DNA of 64,000 nucleotides, from NCBI RefSeq assembly GCF_963921235.1, contig NC_086097.1, forward strand, positions 37,202,001 to 37,266,000. Direction: 5' to 3'. The notes under the pieces are model-generated. The model was not told the origin of the DNA. It ran no database searches and saw nothing but the letters and a program-made list of their open reading frames with translations. Shown in pieces: positions 1 through 61,215 of this stretch (positions are counted from its first letter, which is position 1; each line of letters opens with the position of its first letter). A program made the translations under genes and the position numbers. Origin of the DNA: Mobula hypostoma. Its lineage: Eukaryota.

Positions 1-755
1 CTTGTCCACGCGTCCCTCCCCACTGATCGCCCTCCTGACACTTACCCTTGCAAGCGGAACAAGAGCTACACCTACCCCTATACCTCCTCTCTCACTTCAG
101 GGCCCCAAACAGTCCTTTGAGGTGAGGCAACACTCTACCTGTGAGTCTGTTGGGGTCACATACTGTGTCCTGAGCTCCTGATGTGGCCTCCTGCATATCG
201 GTGAGACCTGACGTAGATTGGGAGACTGCTTCACCAAGCACCTATGCTTTATCCACCAGAAAAAGCAGGATCTTCCAGTAGCCACCCATTTTAATTCCAC
301 TTCCCATTCCGATATGTCTGGGTAACCTCCAACCTGATGGCATGAATATTGATTTCTCGAACTTCCGGTAATGGACCCCCATCCCCTTTTCCCTTTCTCA
401 CCTTATCTCCTTACCTACCCATTGCCTCTCTCTGGTGCTCCTCCCCCTTTTCTTTCTTCCATGGCCCTCTGTCCTCTCCCATTAGATTACCCCTTCTCCA
501 GCCCTGTACCTCTTTCACCAATCAACCTCCCAGCTCTTTACTTCACACACCTTTCACCTTGTGTTCCTCCTTCCCCACCCCCCCAAACCTTTCAACTCCA
601 ACTCCTTATCTTTTTCTCTCCAGTCCTGCTGAAGAGTCTCAGCCCGAAACATGGACTATACTCTTTTCCATTAATGTCCATAGATTCTGCCTGATCTACT
701 GAGTTCCTAAAGCATTTTGTGTGTGTTGTTTGGATTTCCAGCATCTGCAGATTTT
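1..755 (+). mobile_element. Penelope-like (Neptune-type) retroelement 3' fragment: decayed GIY-YIG coding region, pyrimidine-rich 3' UTR and degenerate hammerhead (621-658)
   Basis: Homologous to the better-preserved copy at 45243-46168 (shared cagggccccaaacagtcctt..gaggcaacac..acctgtgagtc motifs). Confidence 0.85.
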
Positions 756-2316: not shown

Positions 2317-5300
2317 TAGGTTGAATACCACATCCAAAATCCTTGAGGCTGGAAGACTTTCAGATTTTTTGGAATATATAATGAGACAGCTTGGGATCGT
2401 GGTCATTTCTGACTCAGAGCTTATGTGCTACTGATAAACAGTCTATGTCCTGCACTTGCTCAAATGTGCTTAACAGTAAAATAAAATTATTTCATATCAT
2501 TAATATAATGAAAATAAAATGTGTGTAGGGGAACAAAAGCAGCACAGCTGCATCGGGAGAATATCTGAATCAGCTGTTGAACAACAACAAACAACAGCAG
2601 GCTTTCAGTCTCCACCTATGATGCCGTGTTTTGATTAAAAGGTTACAATACACTGTATTTATATTTCAGTTTTCTTAGGCTTTATGTAAGGTATAAAACA
2701 AAAGATTGAATTTATTTACAAATTAATGAAAACGTGACAAAAGTCAGCATTTTATTTATAAATCAATAATGGCGCTGGCCATGTTACACTCAAAAACATA
2801 AGATTTCAGATGGAGATGAAATTCAGATTTTATGCAAAAATGTTTTGTAATTACCAAAAAAAAGTGATTATCTTCACTTACAAAAGCAGAAAGTGCAGCA
2901 CCAAACACAACTACATCAGGTCTAAGAAACCTGAGGGACAGGGTACATCATCGTGGTTGAAGGACCTGGAGGTGGATTCTCTCAGGATGAGGAGGCACTG
3001 TGCTGGATGACTTTTTAAAATGCTTCTTCCATTGTTGTCCACCTCATTAACAAGGGCTTTTGTCATAGCAATCTTTTCTCCACTTTATAAACCGACTTGA
3101 TTTCTTGTTTTGTTATGAACGAACGCTGTTCTACCCCTCAGTAAGTCCATTACATTTTCACCATGGTATCTCTGGGTACGTTTTCTACTGCATTTACAAT
3201 ATCATCTTCACTATTTTCATCACAATCACTTTGATTCAGAAACATCTCAGCTATTTCACCACAGGTCACTGAATGAACAACTGGAGCCTCATTATTGGTC
3301 AAGAACTTCTTTGATATCTAATTCCTCCAGCTCATTGACAGACTCTGAAGGTATCCCTTTTGCGTAATGAAGGAGTTCTGATATCGCCTTTCTCTCACTT
3401 GACACACGTAATCCTTCAAGCTCATTACTTTGTTCATCACCATTGCTGAACATAGTCATAGTCCAGATGTCGTGCCAGGCATGCATAAGTGCGTCTTTAG
3501 TTCGTGCTCCACATGTTGACATAGGCTAAACTCTTTTTGGAAACCTTCCACACTCATGCCTCTGTTCACTGCTGTGAGCATGCTATTCAAGAAATTGCCC
3601 TTATATTTAATCTTCATTGATCTAAGCATACTGTAGTGTTTTCATGCAGTGTGTTGAAACTCTGACTAAACACCAAGTTAAACCGGAGCAAGAGTCGTAG
3701 TAAGGTTAACCATTTACTGTGCACTCTTCCACATTAACGTCGCGTGGTGAAAACTGTTGATATAAAAATACAAACATATACAGCGTCTGTTTCATTCTGG
3801 AGACCACGTGCGCTCTCTTCTTTTAGCGAGTGTCTCCAGCCGCCCCGAGTAGCACCAAACCGCCATCGGGCTTGAGCCAGCCCCACATTTGAAATTGAAA
3901 AGCTGACACGCGCGCCGCCCCAACCGCCGCTTCCTTAACAGAAACCGCATTAATATTTTTACTTCAAATACATTCTTATGAACTTACGGCGTTGCTTCTA
4001 TAATGTTTCTTTGTGGGTAGAAATGGAGCTCTTCACGATCACACCGCACGCATGGCACCCACCTTCACACCTTTTCCGAACCGGAGGTTATACATAAGAC
4101 ACAGTGAAACCGGAGGTGACATCATCACATGCCGCAATATACCGTAGACAATGAATTTACCTTTGTTAGACTGTAACTTAATTATCAACCTCTAACTTTA
4201 ACTAGCAAATAGTTACAAACAAATCATTTAAAGCATAGACCCAACAAAGTCAAATAAATGCCTTAAGGACAACACAGATACCTTGGTCACATGGCTTAAT
4301 TAATACAGTCACATTTGGGGGAAAGTACATGACATAAACACTATCTTTGATGAGAAATTCAGTTGGAGGATGAGTAGAACAGTTGTCAAGGAATAATAAA
4401 ATCTTGCAGTTGTCATCCAGTCCAGCTTCCCTGCAGTGGGCATAAACCACTGAAACAAAATGTTTGTGAAACCAATCAGTAAAGGTGTCCTTGGTGATCC
4501 ATGCCCTTTTGTTAGCATAATGAATGGATTGGTAAGGTATTCACTCCTTTAAAACAGTGAGGACACAAGCTTTTGCCTACCACAGCAAGTCACACTTATG
4601 CATGCCTACAGCATTAACACATCCCAACAGAGTTATTCTGTCCTTGGCATTCTTAATTCCTGTGGGAGCTTTCTCATCAGCTGTAGTCAGTGGCTTCCTG
4701 GGGCAATAACTTCAGAACAATGATGTCTCATCAACACTGCAGACTCGTTCTGGTATCAGTGATGATCTTGGCCAACTCAACAATTATTTTTTCTGCTGCT
4801 TTATCGCCACAAATCTTTACAAATTTATGCCGTGCTTTTTCTTAAATTTCTATAACAAGCCTGCTGAATATTCACAATTACTTTCAATATTCAGTTAGTT
4901 TTGATAGATCTTTGCTTGTTTCATTATCAACATACCGTTAAGCAGCATACGTTCACTCTGATGCTGACGAATCCACTCTTTAAATACATTTTTCACTTTG
5001 TGCACTATTTTCCTATTGTTCATTAACTTCTGTACATTACTTTCAGCATAGAACTTAAAACAGTTTATCATTCTGTTTCTTCAGATCTTATACGGTGGTT
5101 GTCCCAACATTATACTCCTCTGTAAAATGCCTTACACTTACACCACAGTCAAGTTTTTCCAACAACTTGACTTTCTGCTTTAAAGAAAAACATAAGTGTG
5201 TCCTCTTTTTCTTTTCATCATTACCCATAAGGGTAAATGCAGGCCTTTTTGACTTTTTCTACAATATCTCCATAGCACAGAGCAGCGAATAATGCAAAAC

Positions 5301-5547: not shown

Positions 5548-5756
5548 TATTACTTTATTCTTATTCTGGAGTACTGTGTATAATCTTAGTCTCAAGGAAA
5601 AAAACCAATATGGTTCCAATCTTCTGACAACAAAGCTGATGCAGCCTTAGTGAAAGAGTGAATAAGAAAGATTAAATAATTCTCAAGAAAAAATATTTTC
5701 TATAGAGAAATAAATATTCTAGTCTATCTGTGGCTAACCAAAGAAGTTAAGAATGG

Positions 5757-6381
5757 CAACACAACAAAATGCTGGTGGAATGCAGCAGGCCAGGCAGCAT
5801 CTATAGGAAGAAGTACAGTCAACGTGTCGGGTCGAGACCCTTCATCAGGACTAACGGAAAAAAGAGATAGTAAGAGATTTGAAAGTGGGGGGCGGGGAGG
5901 GACAGACCCGAAATTTAGGAGAAGACTGGAAGGGGAGGGATGAAGCTAAGAGCTGGGAAGTTGATTGGCAAAATGAAGGGGGAGTATGATAGGACGGAAG
6001 GCCTTGGAAGAAAGAAAGTGGGAGGGGAGCACCAGAGGAAGATGGAGAACAGGCAAGGGGTTGTGAGAGGGAAAGACAGAAGGAAAAAAAATAAAATAAA
6101 ATAAAAATTAGGGATGGGGTAAGAAGGGGAGGAGGGGCATTAACAGAAGTTAGAGAAATCAATGTTTATGCCATCAGGTTGGAGGCTACCCAGACGGAAT
6201 ATAAGGTGTTGTTCCTCCAACCTGAGTGTGGCTTCATCTTAACAGTAGAGGAGGCCATAGATTGACATATCGGAATGGGGATGGGACGTGGAAATAAAAT
6301 GTGTGGCCACTGGGAGATCCTGCTTCCTCTGGCGGACAAAGCGTAGGTGTTCAGCAAAGCAGTCTCCCAATCTGCGTCGGT
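5757..6381 (-). mobile_element. Penelope-like 3' fragment (C-terminal GIY-YIG, 3' UTR, hammerhead with GAAA>GACA at 5816-5853)
   Basis: Closely similar to the reverse complement of ~45530-46168. Confidence 0.9.
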
Positions 6382-7611: not shown

Positions 7612-9725
7612 TGTAACACACATGAGATGCTGGAGGAACTCAGCAAATTACAGTGCCTTGAGAAGTATTCAGCCCTCAACCTTTTGTTCACATAAATGAG
7701 TATCACAACCAGGGATTGTGATCAACTAAGAACTTTTATTTGTGAATAACATGCTCCATTTTTCACAGTAGAACCCCCGCTCCCAAAAAAAGGGAAAATT
7801 GTAAAGCATGAAATTCAAAAACTGAAATGTCAGCATTTCAAAAGTATTCATCCCCCTTTGCTCAGTATTTAGTTGAACCACCTCTCACAGCTTTTACAGC
7901 CTTTTTGGATCTGTCTCTATCAGCTTTGCAAGTGTGATGGAGCAAGATTTGCCCATTCCTCCTTCAAAAATTGCTCAAGCTGTGCCAGGTTAGTTGGAGA
8001 GTGGTGGTGAACAGAAATCTTGAGGTCTTGCCAGAGATATTGATAGGGTTAAGGTCAGAACTCTGAGTGGGCCACTCAAGGACATCAATTTTCTTCATAT
8101 GAACCCACTCCATGGTTGCTCTGGCAGTGTGCTTTGAGTTGTTGTCCTGTTGCAAGGTAACTTCCTTCCCAGTTTAAGCTTTCTGGAGAGGCAAGCAGGT
8201 TTTTATCCAGGACCTCTCTGTATTTAGCAGCATTCACCTTCCCACCAATCCTGACCAGATTTCCAATCCCTGCTGCCAAAATCCAACCCCACAGCATGGT
8301 GCTACCTCCACTATACTTTACAGTAGTGATAGTGTTAACCTGGCTGATACGTAGCATTAGATTTACGCTACACAAACTGCATACTATTGAGGCCAAAAAG
8401 TTTCACTTCATCTCATTCGACCACAAGACCTTCTTTCACTTCTTTACAGTATCTTCTAAGTGATGTTTGCAAAGTCTTTACAGGCAAAGATATGGGTTTT
8501 TTTTTTAGCCTTGGGCTTCTTCCTTGCCACTCTTCCATAAATACCCTTTTTGTGCAAGGCCTTAAGAGATTGTAGAGCCATGAACTTCACCTCCAGTTGC
8601 AACCACTGATTTCTGCAGCTCACTCAGAATGACTACTAGAGACAGTAATCTCTCTCACAGTGCCATTCTCCTCTGGCGACTAAGTTTAGAGGGGTGACCT
8701 CTGCAGTGTGGCTGTTGATTCATATTTTTTCTTTCTCTCAATAGACTGCACTGAGCTCCAAGCTATGTGCCCTTCAGATGGTCTTGTATCTTTCCCCAGA
8801 TCTGTGCTTCTCTATTATCATTTCCCTGACTTATCTTGAATGCTTTTTCATATTCAGTTTGGTCTGTTGAAAAATCTACGATATTGTCATACTTCAAGAG
8901 AGAGAGGGTACTTGCAGTATTCTTATGAATTAATTGAAAACAGATAATTCTCCAAATTTCTAAATAAATAAATTGGGTGAGTTGGTTAGGTAATATATTG
9001 CCACTGCGGAAAGTTATTATCATAATTACAAAGTAGATGAATACTTTTTCTGCCTCATAATTTTGGTTTTTAATTTTTAGTAAATTGACAGGTTTGGGGA
9101 TTTTTCTTTTGATTTGACATGAGCCACAATGTTTTGTAAATTAGATCAATACATTTCAAATTTTGAAAAAGAGACAGTAAAATGTGAAAATAGTTGTGGG
9201 GGATGAATATTTTTTCAAGGCACTATATGTAACATCTACGGAGAGGAATAATGACATTTCAGGCCAAGACCCTTCATCAGGACTGTAAAGCAAGGGGGCA
9301 GAAGCCAGAAAAATAAGGTAAAGGGAGGAGAAAGAGTTCAAGTTGGCAGATGATAGGTGAGACCAGTTGAGGGGAAGGTGTGTGAGAGAGGGGGAATGAA
9401 GTAAAAAGCTGGGAGGGAATAGATAGAAGAGATAAAAGGCTGAAGGAGGAGGATTTTTTTTTTGCATAGTAGGGGAATTAAGTATTATGAGGAAAAGGCA
9501 GGTAGGTAGGTGGAGGTGAATCCATGGCCAGGTCAGCCATAATCTTGTTGAAGGGCGGAGCAGCCTCGATAGGCCAAATGGCCTACTCCTGCGCCTATTT
9601 CTTAAGTTATTACATTCTTAATCTAATCAGAAAAGACAATGGACTATAGAAGAAAGGGAAGGAGGAGAACCAGAGGGAGAGGACGGGCAGGTAAGAAGAA
9701 GAAGAGGGTAACCAGAAAGAATGGA
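7612..9725 (-). mobile_element. Penelope-like 3' UTR fragment split by the Tc1 insertion (7651-9225) and by a short CR1 tail (~9465-9615)
   Basis: gctggaggaactcagca left of the Tc1 continues as catctacggagagg...gacccttcatcaggactg right of it. Confidence 0.75.
7651..9225 (-). mobile_element. Tc1-family (IR/DR type) DNA transposon, decayed
   Basis: TA-CAGTGCCTTG...CAAGGCACT(A)-TA ends. Inner repeats aaagtattcatc (~7841) and gatgaatacttt (~9036). Transposase fragments [32 protein letters not shown] (ORFs 8085..8396, 7964..8155). Confidence 0.92.
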
Positions 9726-37733: not shown

Positions 37734-40440
37734 CAACACACAGAGAATGCTGGAGGAACTCAGCAGTTCATGCAGCTTCAAAGGAAGAGTGAACAGTCGA
37801 CCTTTCAGGGCGGGACCCTTCTTCTGGACTGAGATGGAATGGGAAAGATGCCAGAATAAAAAGGTGGGGGGGGGAGGAAGAGATGCCAGAATAAAAAAGG
37901 TGGGGAAGGAGAAAGAGGCTAGCTGGTAGGAGCAGCCAGGTGGGTGGAAAAGGTCAAGGGCTGCAGCAGAAAGAATCTGAAAGCAGAGCATTGTGAACAA
38001 TGGGAGAAAGGTAAGGAGGAGGGGACCCAGTGAAATAGGCAGGTTAGGCAGGTGAGAACAAGTGAATGATCGGAGTGGGGAATAGGGGGGCAGGTGAGGG
38101 AAATTTATTCACCAGAAGGAGAAATCGATATTCATGCTATCAAGTTAGAGGCTACACAGACAGAATATAAGGTGTTACATAGAAAGATAGAAAATAGGTG
38201 CAGGAGTAGGCCATTCAGCCCTTCGTGCCTGCACCGCCATTCAGTATGATCGTGGCTGATCATCTAACTCAGAACCCTGTACCAGCCTTCCCTCCGTACC
38301 CCCTGATCCCTTTAGCCACAAGGGCCATATCTAACTCCCTCTTAAATATAGCCAATGAACTGGCCTCAACTGTTTCCTGTGGCAGAGAATTCCACAGATT
38401 CACCACTCTCTGTGTGAAGAAGTTTTTCCTAATCTCGGTCCTAAAAGGCTTCCCCTTTATCCTCGAGCTGTGACCCCTCGTTCTGGACTTCCCCAACATC
38501 GGGAACAATCTTCCTGCATCTAGCCTGTCCAATCCCTTTAGGATTTTATACGTTTCAATAAGATCCCCCCTCAATCTTCTAAATTCCAAAAAATATAAGC
38601 CTAGTCAATCCAGTCTTTCTTCATATGAAAGTCCTGCCATCCCAGGAATCAATCTGGTGAACCTTCTTTGTACTCCCTCTATGGCAAGGATGTCTTTCCT
38701 CAGATTAGGGGACCAAAACTGTACACAATACTCCAGGTGTGGTCTCACCAAGGCCTTGTACAACTGCAGTAGTACCTCCCTGCTCCTGTACTCGAATCCT
38801 CTTGCTATGAATGTCAGCATACCATTCGCCTTTTTCACCGCCTGCTGTACCTGCATGCCCACTTTCAATGACTGGTGTATAATGACACCCAGGTCTCGCT
38901 GCACCTCCCCTTTTCCTAATCGGCCACCATTCAAATAATAATCTGTTTTCCTGTTTTTGCCACCAAAGTGGATAACCTCACATTTATCCACATTAAATTG
39001 CATCTGCCATGAATTTGCCCACTCACCTAACCTATCCAAGTCACCCTGCATCCTCCTCACAGCTAATACTGCCGCCCAGCTTCCTGTCATCCGCAAACTT
39101 GGAGATGCTGCATTTAATTCCCTCATCTAAATCATTAATATATATTGTAAACAACCGGGGTCCCAGCACTGAGCCTTGCGGTACCCCACTAGTCACTGCC
39201 TGCCATTCTGAAAAGGTCCCGTATATTCCCACTCTTTGCTTCCTGTCTGCTAACCAATTCTCTATCCACATCAATACCTTACCCCCAATACCGTGTGCTT
39301 TAAGTTTGCACACTAATCTCCTGTGTGGGACCTTGTCAAAAGCCTTTTGAAAATCCAAATATACCACATCCACTGGTTCTCCCCATCCATTCTACTAGTT
39401 ACATCCTCAAAAAACTCTATGAGATTCGTCAGACATGATTTTCCTTTCACAAATCCATGCTGACTTTGTCCAATGATTTCACCGCTTTCCAAATGTGCTG
39501 TTATCATATCTTTGATAACTGACTCTAGCATTTTCCCCACCACTGATGTTAGGCTAACCGGTCTATAATTCCCTGGTTTCTCTCTCCCTCCTTTTTTAAA
39601 AAGTGGGTTACATTAGCCACCCTCCAATCCTCAGGACCTAGTCCAGAATCTAAAGAGTTTTGAAAAATTATCACTAATGCATCCACTATTTCTTGGGCTA
39701 CTTCCTTAAGCACTCTGGGATGCAGACCATCTGGCCCTGGGGATTTATCTGCCTTTAATCCCTTCAATTTACCTAACACCACTTCCCCTACTAACATGTA
39801 TTTCCCTCAGTTCCTCCATCTCACTGGACCCTCTGTCCCCTACTATTTCCAGAAGATTATTTATGTCCTCCTAGTGAAGACAGAACCAAAGTAGTTATTC
39901 AATTGGTCTGCCATGTTCTTGCTCCCCATAATCAAGTCACCTGTTTCTATCTGTAGGGGACCTACATTTGTCTTAACCAATCTTTTTCTTTTCACATATC
40001 TAACCAATCTTTTTCTTTTCACATGTTGCTCCTCATCCCTGAGGGTGGCGTCATCTTGGCACAAGAGGACGCAATGGATCAACACATCAGAATGAGAGTG
40101 GAAATCAGAATTAAAATGTCTGGCCACTAGAAAGTCCTGCTTGTGGCGGATGATGCGGAAGTGCTTGATGAAGTGAGCAATTTATGACGGATCTCACCAA
40201 TGTAGAGGAGGTCACATCAGATTCCTCCTTCTCCAGCCCTTTACCTTTCCCACCCACCTGACTTCACCTATTACCTTCTACCTCGTCGTCCTTCCCCTCT
40301 CCACACTTTTTTATTCTGGTATCTTCCCCCTTCTTTTCAACTCCTAAAGGAGAGTCTCGGCCCAAAATGTCGACTGTCTATTAATTTCCATAGATGTTAT
40401 CTGACCTGCTGAGTTCCTCCAGCATTTTGTGTGTGTTATT
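37734..40440. mobile_element. Penelope-like element in head-to-head inverted form (minus arm 37734-40220 interrupted by CR1; plus arm ~40217-40440)
   Basis: aatataaggtgtt (~38164-38176) resumes as gttgctcctc (~40025). At ~40217 the sequence switches to the reverse complement of ~37740-37980. Confidence 0.8.
38177..40024 (-). mobile_element. 5'-truncated CR1 LINE (RT) nested in the Penelope-like element
   Basis: ORFs 38269-39797 ([29 protein letters not shown]). 3' tail catagaaagatagaaaatag. Confidence 0.93.
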
Positions 40441-43997: not shown

Positions 43998-44960
43998 TAC
44001 AAGAAATTCTGCAGATGCTGTTAATCCTAAGCAATACACACAAAATGCTGGAGAAACTAAGCAGGTCAGGTAGCACCTATGGAAGTGGACATAGTCACCT
44101 TTTCAGGCCAAGACCCTTCATCAGGACTGGAAAGGGCGGGGGAAGATGTCAGATAAAAAGGTGGGGAGGGGGAAGGGAAAGAGGACAGTTAGAAGGTGAT
44201 AGGTGAAGCCAGGTAGGTAGGAAAGGGAAAGTGGAAGGGACTCAGGGGGAGATGATAGGTAGGGTAGAAGAGGTAACGGGCCAGAGTGGGGTATAGGAGG
44301 AGGAGGAAGGGGGAAGGAATTTTTTTTTACCGGAAGGGGAAATTGATATTCAGGCTGGAGGCTTTCCAGATGGAATACAAGTTGTTGCTCCTCCTCCCTT
44401 AATGTGACACAAAATGAGGCCATAGACCTACATGTTGGAATGGAAATGGGAATCTGAATTAAAATGTTTGGCCACGGGATGTTCCGCTTTTGGGGAATGG
44501 GGCACAGGTGCTCAACAAAGCGGTCCCCAATTTATGATGTCTTTCACCAATGTAGAGGAGGCCTCATTGGGAGTGCCAAACGCAACAGACGACCCCAGCA
44601 GATTCACAGATAAAGTTTTGCCTCACCTGGAAGGACTGTTTGGGGGCCTGAATGGAGGTGAGGGAGGTGCTGAATGGGCAAATGTACTCTTTAGCCATTT
44701 GCAGGGAAAAGTGCCAGGAGGGAGGTTAGTTGGAAAAGAGGAATAAGGAGGAATGGACAAGGGAATCACAGAGGGAGTGATCCCTCCAGAATGCCGGGGG
44801 CGGTGGTGGAGTTAAAAGACATGTTTGGTAGCAGGATCCATTTGGATAGTGAAAGTTGCAGAGAGTGATGTGTTGGATGCAAAGGCTCATGGGTTGGTAG
44901 GTAAGGACAAGAGGAACTCTATCACTGTTAAGGCAGCAAGAAAATGGGGTGAGCACAGAG
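43998..44960 (-). mobile_element. Penelope-like 3' fragment (older copy)
   Basis: ORFs 44726..44956 (RVPLVLTYQP) and 44121..44423 (EEQQLVFHLESLQP). Hammerhead remnant at 44092-44129. Confidence 0.85.
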
Positions 44961-45242
44961 TGTGAGATGCAGCTCAGTCAGGCAACTAAAAGGGCAGGGA
45001 ATTTTGACAAGATAGTGTTGGCATAACAATGGATTCCTCATCAGAAAACTGAAAAAGCCCCAGCTGAGCAAATCATGCTATTGACAACCAACTTCTGAAG
45101 CAATGTCCATCCAAATGTCTCTTAAGTATAACAGTACATTGGTGTGCTGTTTGATAGTGGCATTTTAAAAGATGAGAAAATAAATCATTTGACGCAATGT
45201 AAACAAGTTTGTTGGTATGCCCTGCAAATGTCTAATAGTTAT

Positions 45243-46168
45243 ATCCCACTAAGCACATCTTTCCCTCCCCCCCCCGCATTCCGCAGGGATCGCTCCCTAC
45301 ACAACTCCCTTGTCCATTCGTCCCCCCCATCCCTCCCCACTGATCTCCCTCCTGGCACTTATCCGTGTAAGCGGAACAAGTGCTACACATGCCCTTACAC
45401 TTCCTCCCTTACCACCATTCAGGGCCCCAAACAGTCCTTCCAGGTGAGGCAACACTTCACCTGTGAGTCGACTGGGGTGATATACTGCGTCCGGTGCTCC
45501 CGATGTGGCCTTTTATATATTGGCGAGACCCGACGCAGACTGGGAGACCGCTTTGCTGAACATCTACGCTCTGTCCGCCAGAGAAAGCAGGATCTCCCAG
45601 TGGCCACACATTTTAATTCCACATCCCATTCCCATTCTGACATGTCTATCCACGGCCTCCTCTACTGTAAAGATGAAGCCACACTCATGTTGGAGGAACA
45701 ACACCTTATATTCCGTCTGGGTAGCCTCCAACCTTATGGCATGAACATCCACTTCTCTAACTTCCGCTAAGGCCCCACCTCCCCCTCGTACCCCATCTGT
45801 TACTCATTTTTATGCACACATTCTTTCTCTCACTCTCCTTTTTCTCCCTCTGTCCCTCTGAATATACCTCTTGCCCATCCTCTGGGTCTCCCCCCCTCCT
45901 TGTCTTTCTTCCCGGACCTCCTGTATCCATGATCCTCTCGTATCCCCTTTTGCCTCTCACCTGTCCAGCTCTTGGCTCTATCCCTCCCCTTCCTGTCTTC
46001 TCCTATCATTTTGGATCTCCCCCTCCCCCTCCAACTTTCAAATCCCTTACTCACTCTTCCTTCAGTTAGTCCTGACGAAGGGTCTCGGCCTGAAACGTCG
46101 ACTGCAGCTCTTCCTACAGATGCTGCTTGGCCTGCTGCGTTCACCACCAACTTTGATGTGTGTTGCTT
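45243..46168 (+). mobile_element. Young 5'-truncated Penelope-like (Neptune-type) element: Zn-finger linker, intact GIY-YIG endonuclease frame, 3' UTR, hammerhead
   Basis: ORF 45144..45770: CKRNKCYTC linker, VIYCVRCSRCGLLYIGETRRRLGDRFAEH, EEQHLIFRLGSLQPYGMN. Confidence 0.92.
46067..46104 (+). ncRNA. Minimal type I hammerhead ribozyme with intact core
   Basis: UAGUC-CUGACGA-A-GGGUCUCGGCCU-GAAA-CG-UC|GACUG: stem I UAGUC/GACUG, core CUGANGA and GAAA, stem II hairpin, palindromic ACGU in place of stem III, GUC cleavage triplet (cut predicted 46099/46100). Confidence 0.8.
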
Positions 46169-47438
46169 TAATAGTTATGTCCTGATCACTGTTGACTACC
46201 AAGAGATTCAGCAGATTCTTTGAAATCTTACTTTAAGATGGTTATTTCTTAGTATTTACAGTAAGAAAATCCTACCACCCATAAGTGTATCAAGCTTTAA
46301 TCAACTGATATCACTTAACAACACTACTGATAAATTGTTCCATCATGTTTTCCAATGAGCTAAGAGGAAGTAATTGGCAATATTAGATTTTTCTTTACTC
46401 CTCCTGACTAAAGTTGTGGAATGTATTCTACTGAATGGATTCCAATATCATAACTGCTTTGGAAAAATACACAATTCTTTAACATTGTTAGTCATCAGAG
46501 CACATTTACTCTCCCCAATAGTCTCAGCCACTTCATATCATATGACTGGTGAAAAAAAATCAAAGAATGGTAAAGACGGTGCTGGGGTCCTGAGAACTTC
46601 TGGCCAGAGATATTTTCCAGCTCTGCATCTCTTCTTTTCCTATCATTGGGGTTTGCTGCCCCTTCCCCTTAGCTTGTCCACTAACATTCTGAACTCAGGT
46701 ATGAGGTCATCAAAGGAGGAATTTACTACTCATTATAGAAAAACAGGTTAATAGATTAGCTGATAGTAAATCCAAAATACATTATTCATGGAAAATAAAG
46801 AAACTGTGAAAGACAAATGATAGAATAAGGTTTGCCATGACAGGTTCAGCAGACAGATGATATTATGCTAAGATTTATGTTAACATATACTTTAAGATAA
46901 ATTTCTGAATAAGAGAAACAGGAAAATATTTAGATTACTGACCCATAAAATTACAACTTATCCAAAGTTCAAGTTTACAACTATGATCATTCACTTGTTA
47001 ACCAACACTGTGACAATTCTTTTTCAAAAAAAAATCCTGCACTGACTACAGCATAAAAAAAGGAAACTTTTTGTTTAGTTTGGTTTACATAAGAGAATTC
47101 GCAAAGTGTCATTCACTACTTTTGCAAATATATATCAATGTGCCCTGTTGATGAATATCCTGCATTAACTGAGCCACATACGCGAACCTAACATTTCAGG
47201 TTGAAGTTGCTCCATCACAATAACTTGGTGCTTTTATTTAAAACCCAGTACAGACACATGTAGCTGGCCTCTACAAAAACAACCATAATCTACCTTAATA
47301 AATTAAACTCAAAACAACTCCGTTGAACCCAACACGCAATTTACCTACAGGTCGGATCACCCAAACCTACTCAAAAAGCATAGGAAGATTCCGTTTATAA
47401 AATGCCCTTTGCATGGTGTGGTTAAAATATTTCACTCA

Positions 47439-51155: not shown

Positions 51156-51670
51156 TATTAACATCTCATTTATCAAGCAAGCCCATGTGAGTGAAAAGGC
51201 CTTCCATGTCTAGAATTGTGCTATCTGCCTATTGTGTGTATGTGTGTGTGTGCATTCTTGTACATGTGTTTATGTAAAAAAAGAAATAAAAATCTCCTTT
51301 CACTTCCATGATTGTGAATTATGCTGATTATGCACACGCACATTGCTTTCATTCATATTTGCATTTTAAACAACCGAGTATTTATTTTCTTGAGTAGTGA
51401 AGTCGAATGATGCCCTGTTTAAATAAAAGCTAGTTATTCATTTTGATCCATAAAGAAGCTGAAAATAAGACCACAATTTACTCTTTAGGTGGTTTTCTGA
51501 ATGGCTCATGTACAGAACAATTGAACTACCATCTTTATAATCTGGCCCTATTTCAAATTTAATTGTCAGGAAGATGGTATTCCTGACTGATCTACATCCA
51601 TTTACAGAACGAGTACACCTGGTAATGTGGGGTGACATTCAGCTCAGTTTGTTTCAATTCATACAAAGGG

Positions 51671-59388: not shown

Positions 59389-61215
59389 TCAAAGCAACAC
59401 TCACAACATGCTGGAGGAACTCAGCAGGTCGGGCAGCATCAGCGGAAACGATCAGTCAACGTTTCAGGCCGGAACCCTTCGTCGGGACTGTAGAGGGAAG
59501 GGGCGGAGGCCCTATAAAGAAGGTGGGGGGAGGGTGGGAAGGAGAAGACTGGTAGGTTCCAGGTGAAAAACCAGTAAGGGGAAAGATAAAGGGGTGGGGG
59601 AGGGGAAGCAGGGAGGGGATAGGCAGGAAAGGTGAAGTAGGGGAAAACACAATGGGTAGTAGAAGGAGGCGGAACCATGAGGGAGGTGATAGGCAGCTGG
59701 GGGAGGGGGCAGCGTGAAATAGGGATAGGGGAAGGGAGGGGGAGGGAATTACCGGAAGTTGGAGAATCCTATGTTCATACCAAGGGGCTGGAGACTACCG
59801 AGACGGTATATGAGGTGTTGCTCCTCCAACCTGAGTTTAGCCTCATCATGGCAGTAGAGGAGGCCATGTATGAACATATCCGAATGGGAATGGGAAGCAG
59901 TGTTGAAGTGGGTGGCTACCGGGAGTTCCTGTCTGTTGTGGCGGACGGAGCGGAGGTGCTCGAAGAAGCGGTCCCCCAATCTGCATTGGGGTTCACCGAT
60001 GTAGAGGAGGCCACACCAGGAGCACCGGATGCAATGGATGACCCCAACAGACTCACAAGTGAAGTGTTGCCTCACCTGGAAGGACTGTTTGGGGCCCTGA
60101 ATGGTGGCAAGATAGGAGGTGTAGGGACAGGTGTAGCACTTACTCTTACAGGGATAAGTGCCAGGTGGGAGATCCGTGGGGAGGGACGTGTGGATCAGGG
60201 AGTCGTGGAGGGACCGATCCCTGCGGAAAGCAGAGAGGGGTGGAGAGGGAAAGATGTGCTTAGTGGTGGGGTCCTGTTGAAGGTGGCGGAAGTTGCGGAG
60301 GATAATGTGCTGGATCCAGAGGCTGGTGGGGTAGTAGGTGAGGATAAGGGGATCTCTGTCCCTGTTGTGGTGGCGGGACTACCTGATCCACACGTCCCTC
60401 CCCACGGATCTCCCACCCGGCACTTATCCCTGTAAGCGTAAGTGCTACACCTGTCCCTACACCTCCTCTCTTGCCACCATTCAGGGCCCCAAACAGTCCT
60501 TCCAGGTGAGGCAACACTTCACTTCTGAGTCTGTTGGGGTCATCTATTGCATCCGGTGCTCCCAATGCGGCCTCCTCTACATCGGTGAAACCTGACGCAG
60601 ATTGGGGGACCGCTTCGTCAAGCACCTCTGCTCCGTCCACCACAACAGACAGGATCTCCCGGTAGCCACCCACTTCAACTCTGCTTCCCACTCCCATTCA
60701 GACATGTCCATACATGGCCTCCTCTACTGCCATGATGAGGCTAAACTCAGGTTGGAGGTGCAACACCTCATATACCGTCTAGGTAGTCTCCAGCCCCTTG
60801 GTATGAACATAGAATTCTCCAACTTCCGGTAATTCCCTCCCCCTCCCTTCCCCTATTCCTTTTTCACTCTGCCCTTCCCCCAGCTGCCTATCACCTCCCT
60901 CATGGTTCCGCCTCCTTCTACTACCCATTGTGTTTTCCCCTATTCCTTCTTCACCTTTCCTGCCTATCACCTCCCTGCTTCCCCTCCCCCACCCGTTTAT
61001 CTTTCCCCTTACTGGTTTTTCACCTGGAACCTACCAGCCTTCTCCTTCCCACCCTCCCCCCACCTTCTTTATAGGGACTCTGCCCCTTCCCCCTACAGTC
61101 CTAATGAAGGGTTCCGGCCCAAAACGTCCAATTCCATGGATGCTGCCCGACCTGCTGAGTTCCTCCAGCGTGTTGTGAGTGTGGCTTTGACCCCAGCATC
61201 TGAAGAGTATTTTAT
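59389..61215. mobile_element. Penelope-like element in head-to-head inverted configuration (two ~810 bp arms, ~170 bp spacer)
   Basis: 59389-~60204 is the reverse complement of ~60377-61190. GIY-YIG fragments on minus (59749..60075) and plus (60338..60595, 60602..60832). Confidence 0.93.

What the first reader, a model, noticed from the sequence alone, without database searches (positions are those of the whole stretch)
46067..46104. Intact minimal hammerhead ribozyme at the 3' end of a Neptune-type Penelope element
Seen: TAGTC CTGACGA A GGGTCTCGGCCT GAAA CG TC GACTG. This has every hammerhead core nucleotide, a 5-bp stem I, a short stem II hairpin, a GUC cleavage triplet and only a palindromic ACGU where stem III should be. 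Across copies stem II varies while keeping its pairing (GGGU-CUCG-ACCC at 5816, GGG-UUCCGG-CCY at 59453 and 61096), and CAGTC/GACTG is usually retained. Established: Penelope-like elements carry minimal type I hammerheads in their pLTRs, thought to cleave as dimers through the palindromic stem III. Inference: this abundant family is a self-cleaving RNA system, with related motifs at about 621, 5816, 9253, 24795, 37794, 40341, 42762, 44092, 46067, 50211, 59453 and 61096 (about 12 in 64 kb). I cannot tell whether it has been described in this lineage.
Basis: partly seen in the sequence, partly recalled or inferred. Interest (0 to 1): 0.82.

Follow-up and report, generated by a model that had tools for sequence, protein, structure and literature searches.

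The report
Minimal hammerhead in a Penelope-like retroelement
The motif is a real, core-intact minimal hammerhead ribozyme motif inside a truncated, dead copy of a hugely abundant Penelope-like retrotransposon, which is a known kind of element seen here at unusually large scale.

Summary
The sequence at 46067-46104 (+) is exactly as described: a complete hammerhead core, a 5-bp stem I, a 4-bp stem II after one extra A, a GUC cut site (46099|46100) and only a palindromic ACGU for stem III. It lies in a 922-nt, 5'-truncated retro-copy (45247-46168) flanked by a 14-bp target-site duplication. The element is a Penelope-like element (PLE) whose endonuclease carries the Neptune/Nematis-type CX4CX2C motif. 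Fuller copies elsewhere in the genome show direct repeats (pLTRs) and 3.5-kb tandem arrays, with the hammerhead about 295 nt after the stop codon and 60 nt before the next ATG. The genome holds 47,422 fully intact motifs (control 0). In the window only this copy has an intact core. Within the family the core is no better kept than stem II, as expected for neutral, CpG-driven decay. Covariation appears only between diverged lineages. A lineage with a broken core (A6C) still amplified, and the dominant lineage has U at 11.1. Cleavage was not tested here. Published PLE hammerheads cleave weakly, as dimers or with protein help. Verdict: new member of a known kind (Cervera and de la Pena 2014), modest interest.

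The parts
45233..45246 (.). Left target-site duplication, TAATAGTTATATCC
   Evidence: 13 of 14 bases identical to 46169-46182, directly flanking the element.
45247..46168 (+). 5'-truncated copy (922 nt) of the Penelope-like element, ending at the short 3' end
   Evidence: window 45246-46172 aligns to positions 2660-3586 of a 3,616-nt unit from L030 at 95.7% identity over 932 nt. The boundaries were refined using the target-site duplication.
45366..45392 (+). CX4CX2C motif (C-KRNK-C-YT-C) upstream of the GIY-YIG domain
   Evidence: translation. (Craig 2021 passages): CX2-5CxxC is present in Neptune and Nematis and absent in Penelope/Poseidon.
45474..45710 (+). [quoted passage not shown]
   Evidence: Pfam PF01541, E=9.8e-5, 23.0 bits against a cut-off of 22.6, residues 115-193 of the ORF 45132-45770.
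45768..45770 (+). Stop codon of the element's ORF
45771..46066 (+). Spacer between the stop codon and the hammerhead (296 nt), part of the pLTR
   Evidence: 295 nt in the L030 unit.
46067..46071 (+). Stem I, 5' strand (UAGUC)
   Evidence: pair probabilities 0.79-0.99.
46072..46078 (+). Core C3-A9 (CUGACGA)
46079..46079 (+). Extra unpaired A between A9 and 10.1
   Evidence: the bulged-A register has P 0.87-0.97 against 0.02 for the A-U register. One search lists this as a trait of PLE minimal hammerheads.
46080..46091 (+). Stem II hairpin GGGU-CUCG-GCCU (G.U at 10.1-11.1, U.G at 10.4-11.4)
46092..46099 (+). G12-A13-A14, then the palindrome A15.1-C-G-U16.1, then C17. Predicted cut after 46099.
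   Evidence: Palindromic 15.2-16.2 is described.
46100..46104 (+). Stem I, 3' strand (GACUG)
46105..46168 (+). Segment from stem I to the short 3' end. In fuller copies it is the 60-nt leader plus the first three codons of the next ORF (here GTG in place of ATG at 46160).
46169..46182 (.). Right target-site duplication, TAATAGTTATGTCC
618..661 (+). Decayed hammerhead of an older copy, A6C lineage (CUGCUGA)
   Evidence: 36.9 bits.
5813..5856 (-). Decayed hammerhead (GACA in place of GAAA) of an older copy spanning 5756-6380
   Evidence: 42.2 bits.
9253..9280 (-). Hammerhead remnant with the core present but the 3' strand of stem I lost
   Evidence: 25.4 bits.
37791..37834 (-). Decayed hammerhead (CAGAAGA)
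   Evidence: 25.2 bits.
40335..40379 (+). Degenerate hammerhead remnant
   Evidence: 16.8 bits, E=0.011.
44089..44132 (-). Decayed hammerhead (GAAAAGGU) of an older copy spanning 44002-44926
   Evidence: 33.3 bits.
59450..59493 (-). Decayed hammerhead (CCGACGA), minus arm of an older inverted pair
   Evidence: 30.4 bits.
61104..61128 (+). Decayed hammerhead (CUAAUGA, AAAA), plus arm of the same inverted pair
   Evidence: 17.3 bits, E=0.0076.

Best explanation
The motif is the minimal type-I hammerhead (min-HHR) carried in the pseudo-LTR of an endonuclease-bearing Penelope-like element with Neptune-type endonuclease features. Shown here: the window copy is a 922-nt, 5'-truncated, TSD-flanked retro-copy. 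It holds the end of the ORF, the spacer, the hammerhead and 69 nt beyond the cut site. In fuller copies the units lie head to tail. The hammerhead sits about 295 nt after one unit's stop codon and 60 nt before the next unit's ATG. Insertions end either 69 nt or about 105 nt past the cut. Inferred: in transcripts spanning more than one unit, two hammerheads pair through the ACGU palindrome, with stems I and III forming between the molecules. They may also be helped by the element's own protein. Cleavage after C17 would give an RNA whose 5' end lies 60 nt before the ORF. Cleavage is probably slow and not obligatory, because reverse transcription starts 3' of the cut and uncut multi-unit templates clearly get inserted. 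The copy at 46067 is a fossil. Its core is intact only because the insertion is fairly young (4.3% diverged), and it has no same-strand partner nearby.
For: The motif and its coordinates are confirmed, with a chance expectation of 0.01 per window. Genome counts all have a control of 0: 60,877, 83,185 stems-anchored, 64,298 core-anchored and 47,422 fully intact. PLE identity: GIY-YIG passes Pfam's cut-off. The long ORFs carry RVT_1 plus GIY-YIG, a DKG motif, cysteines between GIY and YIG, and CX4CX2C (definitions). L030 has 748-nt direct repeats at 99% identity, each with an intact hammerhead. L029 and L031 are tandem arrays with a 3.5-kb unit and three intact hammerheads each. L021 has an inverted 5'-truncated partner. 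Copies fall into two 3'-end classes, matching the published PLE tail. The window copy has a 14-bp TSD. The traits listed for metazoan PLE min-HHRs are present: an extra nucleotide after A9, palindromic 15.2-16.2, and a helix I of 4-5 bp. Covariation between lineages in this genome: 79.6% of cells paired against 29.7-53.4% in slid controls, 6 of 12 pairs changed on both sides, and 17 double-change cells against 8.0+-2.0 in shuffles (0 of 500). One of those lineages (X) has its own GIY-YIG endonuclease upstream (tblastn E=1.4e-8, 5e-5 and 0.003 in 3 of 6 loci). Published work shows dimer-dependent and protein-assisted cleavage of PLE hammerheads.
Against: No cleavage evidence was obtained for this family. 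No Rfam hammerhead model matches, even at E<=10 on 111 bases. The window copy and 83 of the first 100 listed intact copies (my count) have U at 11.1, giving G.U instead of the usual G10.1-C11.1. A sub-lineage with A6C in the core makes up 1,660 of 4,641 older CCAGTC-type copies, so a canonical core was not needed for amplification. Tandem arrays keep intact hammerheads between units, so the inserted templates were uncut. Nearest-neighbour energies disfavour the active fold: double hammerhead -12.9 kcal/mol, two inactive monomers -23.4, extended duplex -31.7. The monomer's lowest-energy fold pairs core G5-G8 with C15.2-C17. Among genomic copies the core is no better kept than stem II (57% against 74% intact). 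Of 100 listed tail-anchored copies, none clearly starts exactly at G1.1. Short-range tandem pairs are rare: 0 within 200 nt among 100 rows. For a related element, hammerhead mutants did not affect insertion in vitro, and no RNA-seq reads ended at the cut site.
Confidence: 0.82

Rival explanations
1. The motif descends from a ribozyme, but in this family it is kept for a non-catalytic role, such as a protein-binding or folding element of the pLTR RNA or a DNA-level regulatory element. Catalysis would be vestigial.
For: The A6C lineage amplified (1,660 of 4,641). The dominant lineage has U11.1. Uncut tandem arrays exist. The active fold is disfavoured in the energy model. Hammerhead mutants do not affect insertion in vitro, and no cleaved ends were seen in RNA-seq for a related element.
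Against: The positions kept across diverged lineages (main family, X, Y, Z) are exactly the catalytic ones, while both stems change sequence and keep pairing. The Anolis PLE hammerhead does cleave when protein is present, with a C3/G8 rescue.
Confidence: 0.13
2. The copy at 46067 is itself an active, possibly exapted ribozyme that cuts a host transcript at this locus.
For: The core, both stems and the palindrome are intact.
Against: It is one of 47,422 identical motifs, in a TSD-flanked truncated insertion. Its neighbours on the same strand are decayed. Published monomers show no detectable cleavage. The monomer prefers an inactive hairpin. There is no sign of local conservation beyond its age.
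Confidence: 0.03
3. The hammerhead resemblance is a chance feature of a repeat's untranslated region.
For: No Rfam hammerhead model scores it. Short descriptors are permissive. A looser pattern gave 129 control hits against 478 real ones.
Against: Chance expectation is 0.01 per window, and the reversed controls are 0 for all family patterns. The position matches that reported for all PLEs. The same architecture occurs with different stems in other lineages.
Confidence: 0.01

Closest known systems
Minimal hammerheads of metazoan Penelope-like elements (Cervera and de la Pena 2014, PMC4209133; main text parts 1-2 read)
   Same: Type-I topology, a complete core, an extra nucleotide between A9 and 10.1, a short helix I, no real helix III but palindromic 15.2-16.2, location in the pLTR, mostly solo or inverted copies, and genome-wide spread. 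The paper names Neptune, Poseidon and Xena elements of fishes.
   Different: Helix II here is short (4 bp with two wobbles), whereas the paper describes 6-8 bp in some invertebrate PLEs. The dominant lineage has U at 11.1. The copy number is 47,422 fully intact motifs, against about 4,000 (coelacanth) and 9,000 (Xenopus), which the paper called remarkable.
Poseidon element PAc of Anolis carolinensis (Frangieh et al. 2024, PMC11167929; passages read)
   Same: A pLTR-ORF-pLTR layout, a hammerhead close to the ORF start, two internal RT start sites that give a 'tail', and uncut RNA serving as template.
   Different: In PAc the ORF starts inside stem II and the cut lies 26 nt downstream of the ATG. 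Here the cut lies 60 nt upstream of the ATG. PAc is Poseidon-type, without CX2-5CxxC. Its cleavage was shown by experiment and needs protein; nothing was shown here.
Neptune clade of EN+ PLEs (Arkhipova 2006 as cited in Craig et al. 2021, PMC8557442; passages read)
   Same: [quoted passage not shown]
   Different: Placement by RT phylogeny was not done. The motif alone does not separate Neptune from Nematis.
Animal non-LTR retrozymes (Cervera and de la Pena 2020, listing only; 2026 bioRxiv preprint 10.64898/2026.07.22.740005, passages read)
   Same: Hammerhead-bearing repeats related to PLEs. Neptune and Poseidon are reported across vertebrate classes.
   Different: Retrozymes are short non-coding tandem repeats (51-972 bp consensus in the preprint). 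Here the tandem unit is the 3.5-kb coding element, and no short tandem pairs were seen (0 within 200 nt among 100 rows).
Rfam hammerhead families (type I, type III, HH9, HH10, type II; family names recalled)
   Same: The same catalytic core.
   Different: No match at gathering score or at E<=10. The curated models expect a helix III.

Membership tests
Metazoan PLE minimal hammerhead (min-HHR) | Complete catalytic core: C3 U4 G5 A6 N7 G8 A9, G12 A13 A14, A15.1/U16.1, H17 | tested here: met
   CUGACGA ... GAAA-CG-UC; a single match, with 0.01 expected.
Metazoan PLE minimal hammerhead (min-HHR) | [quoted passage not shown] | tested here: met
   The A at 46079. The bulged register is favoured, P 0.87-0.97 against 0.02. 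The feature is listed.
Metazoan PLE minimal hammerhead (min-HHR) | G10.1-C11.1 closing pair (described as 'highly conserved', not as universal) | tested here: inconclusive
   The window copy has G.U (U at 46091). By my count, 17 of the first 100 listed intact copies have C and 83 have U. Older lineages and families X, Y and Z have G-C.
Metazoan PLE minimal hammerhead (min-HHR) | No stable helix III, with palindromic 15.2-16.2 | tested here: met
   ACGU at 46095-46098.
Metazoan PLE minimal hammerhead (min-HHR) | Short helix I (4-5 bp), type-I topology | tested here: met
   UAGUC/GACUG, including one U.G pair.
Metazoan PLE minimal hammerhead (min-HHR) | Located in the flanking repeats (pLTRs) of a PLE | tested here: met
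   an intact motif in both 748-nt repeats of L030 and between the units of L029 and L031. maps the window copy onto that unit.
Metazoan PLE minimal hammerhead (min-HHR) | Consensus families with compensatory changes in the stems | tested here: met
   Met between lineages only; 6 of 12 pairs change on both sides, and 0 of 500 shuffles reach the observed score. Within the main family only transitions and wobble changes are seen. The PLE link of Y and Z is untested.
Metazoan PLE minimal hammerhead (min-HHR) | Self-cleavage after position 17, as dimers or with protein | not testable with these tools
   The runs available were contigs of unconfirmed type. The energy model does not favour the active fold.
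EN+ Penelope-like element | [quoted passage not shown] | tested here: met
   RVT_1 E=7.5e-5 (23 bits, below the cut-off of 29.6) and GIY-YIG E=1e-3 in the 974-aa frame. GIY-YIG scores 23.0 bits against a cut-off of 22.6 in the window copy. A DKG motif (ADKGG) is seen.
EN+ Penelope-like element | Cysteines of the CCHH motif directly between GIY and YIG | tested here: met
   VIY-C-VR-C-SR-C-G-LLYIGET.
EN+ Penelope-like element | Partial tandems forming pLTRs, an inverted 5'-truncated partner, and a 30-40 bp tail at one end | tested here: met
   By my count, 15 head-to-head pairs among 100 rows.
Neptune clade of PLEs | An additional CX2-5CxxC motif upstream of GIY-YIG (shared with Nematis, absent in Penelope/Poseidon) | tested here: met
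   C-KRNK-C-YT-C at 45366-45392, also in the long ORFs.
Neptune clade of PLEs | The RT groups with Neptune references in a phylogeny | not tested
The 2026 preprint reports only Neptune and Poseidon in vertebrates.
Rfam hammerhead families | Score at or above the family's gathering threshold | tested here: not met
   no hammerhead family at gathering score or at E<=10.
Animal non-LTR retrozyme | Short non-coding tandem repeats, each carrying a hammerhead | tested here: not met
   0 same-strand pairs within 200 nt among 100 rows. The tandem unit is the 3.5-kb coding element.

The most novel reading that the evidence does not exclude
The hammerhead, placed 60 nt upstream of the ORF's ATG, may both trim multi-unit transcripts to a defined 5' end and, by cleaving, switch on cap-independent translation of the RT-EN protein. 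This would parallel what is reported for HDV-like ribozymes of non-LTR retrotransposons and, in 2026, for hammerheads in RNA-virus UTRs (PMC13725137, passages read). This genome would then offer a natural mutational series for testing how much catalysis a PLE needs: a canonical C11.1 lineage, the dominant U11.1 lineage and an amplified A6C lineage. It would also be the largest reservoir of intact hammerhead motifs I found reported for any genome.
Probability: 0.18. Interest if true: 0.6.

Novelty: new member of a known kind. Interest (0 to 1): 0.3.

Why it matters
Minimal hammerheads in PLE repeats have been known since 2014, so the motif itself adds little. Three things are worth recording. 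First, the scale: 47,422 perfectly intact motifs and at least 83,185 near-consensus ones from one family, in a genome that also holds many copies with long open frames and tandem arrays. That makes it a good system for asking what these ribozymes do. Second, the natural variants: a dominant U11.1 lineage and an amplified A6C lineage suggest that full catalytic fitness is not needed for spread, in line with the one in vitro study. Third, the geometry: the cut lies 60 nt before the ATG, and RT starts 3' of the cut. This constrains models, because cleavage at the downstream repeat would remove the RT start site, so cleavage can only help at the upstream repeat. For annotation, Rfam models miss these motifs entirely.

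Tried and rejected
- Rfam at gathering score, at E<=10 on the whole window, and at E<=10 on 111 bases: no hammerhead family. The weak hits are chance or low-complexity.
- Expression and cleavage from public runs: no RNA holder listed.
- Four runs laid on the element: all are contigs of unconfirmed type. They show presence under four organism labels and both 3'-end classes, but no table of starts or ends, so they say nothing about expression or cleavage.
- Genomic fossils of cleavage, meaning copies that begin exactly at G1.1. By my count, 95 of 100 rows continue into the hammerhead. Five break within 5 nt upstream of the cut, four of them at inverted-repeat junctions with microhomology (GTCGAC is itself a palindrome). 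There is no clear excess. The sample is small.
- Within-family covariation: only transitions, loop changes and wobble-compatible changes. The AGAGU...GCUC double changes are about as many as chance double transitions would give in a family this large.
- RNAalifold on 11 representatives: 0 pairs, because of the gap register. Replaced by an explicit pair count.
- Dimer energetics: my first dimer notation was invalid and was redone. The double hammerhead is not the favoured fold. Tertiary contacts are not modelled.
- PLE link of families Y and Z: only 93-240 nt are shared between copies, so the link was not established.
- Literature: Lunse, Weinberg and Breaker (PMC5785218) is not held and is known only through a review. 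A search for Penelope-like + Neptune + GIY-YIG + 'zinc finger' found nothing. No paper in the library prints the motif strings. Supplementary figures and tables of the 2014 paper were not opened and may list more taxa.
- Earlier scan notes: none for this genome or sequence.
- The organism's lineage was not determined, so whether this lineage has been described cannot be answered.

Full report
**Observation.** The window reads TAGTC CTGACGA A GGGTCTCGGCCT GAAA CGTC GACTG at 46067-46104 on the + strand. That gives every invariant hammerhead position and a 5-bp stem I (UAGUC/GACUG, with one U.G pair). One unpaired A follows A9. Stem II is a 4-bp hairpin, GGGU-CUCG-GCCU. The cut site is GUC (46099|46100). 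Only the self-complementary ACGU stands where helix III would be. A partial descriptor matches once in the window against 0.01 expected. No Rfam family reaches its gathering score, and no hammerhead family appears at E<=10, whether on the whole window or on 111 bases around the motif.

**What the motif sits in.** The ORF 45132-45770 ends in a GIY-YIG domain (Pfam E=9.8e-5, 23.0 bits against a cut-off of 22.6). [quoted passage not shown] Passages of Craig et al. 2021 give the first as the mark of PLE endonucleases. They give the second as present in Neptune and Nematis but absent in Penelope/Poseidon.
- Searching the window's own 3.48-Gb genome with this ORF gave 202,218 first-look candidates. 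All 150 scored matches had E<=4.2e-112.
- The N-terminal part of a long copy gave 6,111 candidates, which indicates strong 5' truncation.
- Long frames of 904-1043 aa carry RVT_1 (E=7.5e-5, below Pfam's cut-off), GIY-YIG and a DKG motif.
- Locus L030 has 748-nt direct repeats (99% identical) around a 1043-aa frame, each repeat with an intact hammerhead.
- L029 and L031 are tandem arrays with a unit of about 3.5 kb and three intact hammerheads each.
- L021 has an inverted 5'-truncated partner.
- The hammerhead lies about 295 nt after the stop codon, and the cut lies 60 nt before the next ATG.
- Copies end either about 69 nt past the cut or about 35 nt further on. The extra piece is the first codons of the ORF. 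This matches the PLE 'tail' and the two internal RT start sites described.

**The window copy.** It aligns to unit positions 2660-3586 at 95.7% identity over 932 nt. It is flanked by TAATAGTTATATCC and TAATAGTTATGTCC, which share 13 of 14 bases. It is therefore a 922-nt, 5'-truncated retro-copy (45247-46168) with the short 3' end. The other copies in the window are 70-86% identical to the unit, and so older.

**Abundance and decay.** All reversed-pattern controls below were 0.
- 60,877 hits for the 28-nt core-plus-stem-II pattern.
- 83,185 with the stems fixed and the core left free.
- 64,298 with the core fixed and stem II left free.
- 47,422 with everything intact.

So the core is intact in 57% of stems-anchored copies, and stem II is consensus-like in 74% of core-anchored copies. 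The core is not better kept. In the first 100 rows, by my count, 60 are intact. Four have GUU. Ten have only CpG decay of the palindrome. Twenty-six have core changes, mostly CpG transitions.

**The other sites in the window.** It recovers two weakly (E=0.17 and 1.4) and not 42762. Direct reading shows a defect in every site except 46067.

**Natural variants.** By my count, 83 of the first 100 fully intact copies have U at 11.1 and 17 have C. The most prolific lineage therefore closes stem II with G.U rather than the usual G-C. An older subfamily has diagnostic flank differences and includes a sub-lineage with C at core position 6. That sub-lineage makes up 1,660 of 4,641 CCAGTC-type copies. 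In the first 100 rows, by my count, G and T at that position account for 3 and 2. A lineage with a non-canonical core thus amplified to thousands of copies. From recall, A6 changes strongly reduce hammerhead activity.

**Covariation.** There is none within the family. A broader pattern gave 478 hits against 129 control hits. It revealed three other recurring minimal hammerheads (X, Y, Z). They share the core, the extra nucleotide, G10.1-C11.1 and ACGU, but have different 6-7-bp stem II helices. X and Y also have a different stem I.
- Family X has its own GIY-YIG-like ORF about 200 nt upstream. It matches the main family's endonuclease in 3 of 6 loci examined (E=1.4e-8, 5e-5 and 0.003).
- Y and Z could not be linked to a PLE.
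- On 11 representatives, the hammerhead pairing gives 79.6% paired cells against 29.7-53.4% for slid partners.
- On the same set, 6 of 12 pairs change on both sides, and 17 cells have a double change against 8.0+-2.0 in shuffles, 0 of 500.
- The sequences come from only four or five lineages, so related rows are counted several times.

**Mechanism.** Shown: the anatomy above. Inferred from the literature: PLE minimal hammerheads do not cleave as monomers. They cleave weakly as dimers through the palindromic helix III, or with help from the element's protein. Cleavage was not needed for insertion in vitro.

Here, reverse transcription starts 3' of the cut, so cutting the downstream repeat would detach the start site. 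Cutting the upstream repeat would give an RNA that starts 60 nt before the ATG. Tandem arrays with intact hammerheads show that uncut templates were inserted.

The energy model puts the double hammerhead at -12.9 kcal/mol. Two inactive monomers score -23.4 and an extended duplex -31.7. The monomer's lowest-energy fold pairs G5-G8 with C15.2-C17. I therefore read the motif as a weak, assisted and non-obligatory processing element of the family. I read the copy at 46067 as a fossil.

**Comparison and novelty.** Cervera and de la Pena 2014 describe the same motif class in the repeats of all PLEs they examined, including fish Neptune elements. They call about 4,000 (coelacanth) and 9,000 (Xenopus) motifs remarkable. 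A 2026 preprint reports Neptune and Poseidon across vertebrate classes. This is a new member of a known kind. What is new is the scale, the U11.1 and A6C lineages, and the position of the cut 60 nt before the ATG. That position fits recent reports that self-cleavage can start cap-independent translation, but this was not tested for PLEs.

**Limits.** No cleavage or expression evidence could be obtained. Counts from the genome tool are lower bounds. Several proportions are my own hand counts of the first 100 listed rows, all from the start of one contig. The RT phylogeny, the lineage of the organism and the supplementary files of the 2014 paper were not examined.

Noticed in passing
G000 C1, e.g. 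109212/109324, 2546804/2546841, 3655540/3655629; locus L003: Many young copies form tight head-to-head (minus then plus) foldbacks. Each arm is only about 17 nt plus the hammerhead plus the 3' segment. By my count there are 15 such pairs among 100 listed rows, 19-127 nt apart, and often only one arm carries the long tail.
   Followed up: partly
L030 2234-2336; window 46100-46168: The PLE 'tail' of this family is the first codons of the ORF (MLLEFPASAEFLLF). Insertions end either three codons into the ORF or about 35 nt further on. Both end classes also show up as loose ends in public contigs.
   Followed up: partly
window 618-661 (+); loci L023-L028: An older subfamily with CUGCYGA (A6C) in the core amplified to thousands of copies: 1,660 of 4,641 CCAGTC-type copies.
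   Followed up: yes
window 46091; genome-wide: The dominant young lineage has U at 11.1 (a CpG transition of C11.1-G12 fixed in the source copies). This replaces the usual G10.1-C11.1 pair with G.U.
   Followed up: partly
L032-L057 (e.g. L038 1625-1658, L035 4528-4561, L036 4516-4549): Three further minimal-hammerhead families (X, Y, Z) have long, different stem II helices. X belongs to a second, diverged PLE lineage with its own GIY-YIG endonuclease. Y and Z were not placed.
   Followed up: partly
window 59409-60378 (-) and 60395-61128 (+): An older inverted pair of PLE copies joined head to head at about 60378/60395.
   Followed up: partly
window 46074-46077 with 46096-46099: With C at N7, core bases GACG are complementary to CGUC at the cut site. 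The monomer's predicted lowest-energy fold is an inactive extended hairpin (-11.7 against -7.7 kcal/mol for the hammerhead-compatible fold).
   Followed up: partly
G000, rows; L029, L031: About 30 of the 150 scored N-terminal matches lie in 1043-aa open frames, and tandem arrays are 99% identical between units. The family looks recently active.
   Followed up: no
window 51225-51301: A (TG)n-type microsatellite gives spurious weak Rfam hits (mir-297, EBv-sisRNA-1).
   Followed up: no
L039, about 600-1,300 nt upstream of its family-X hammerhead: ORFs with LINE-like reverse-transcriptase motifs lie upstream of one family-X copy. This is probably an unrelated neighbouring insertion.
   Followed up: no
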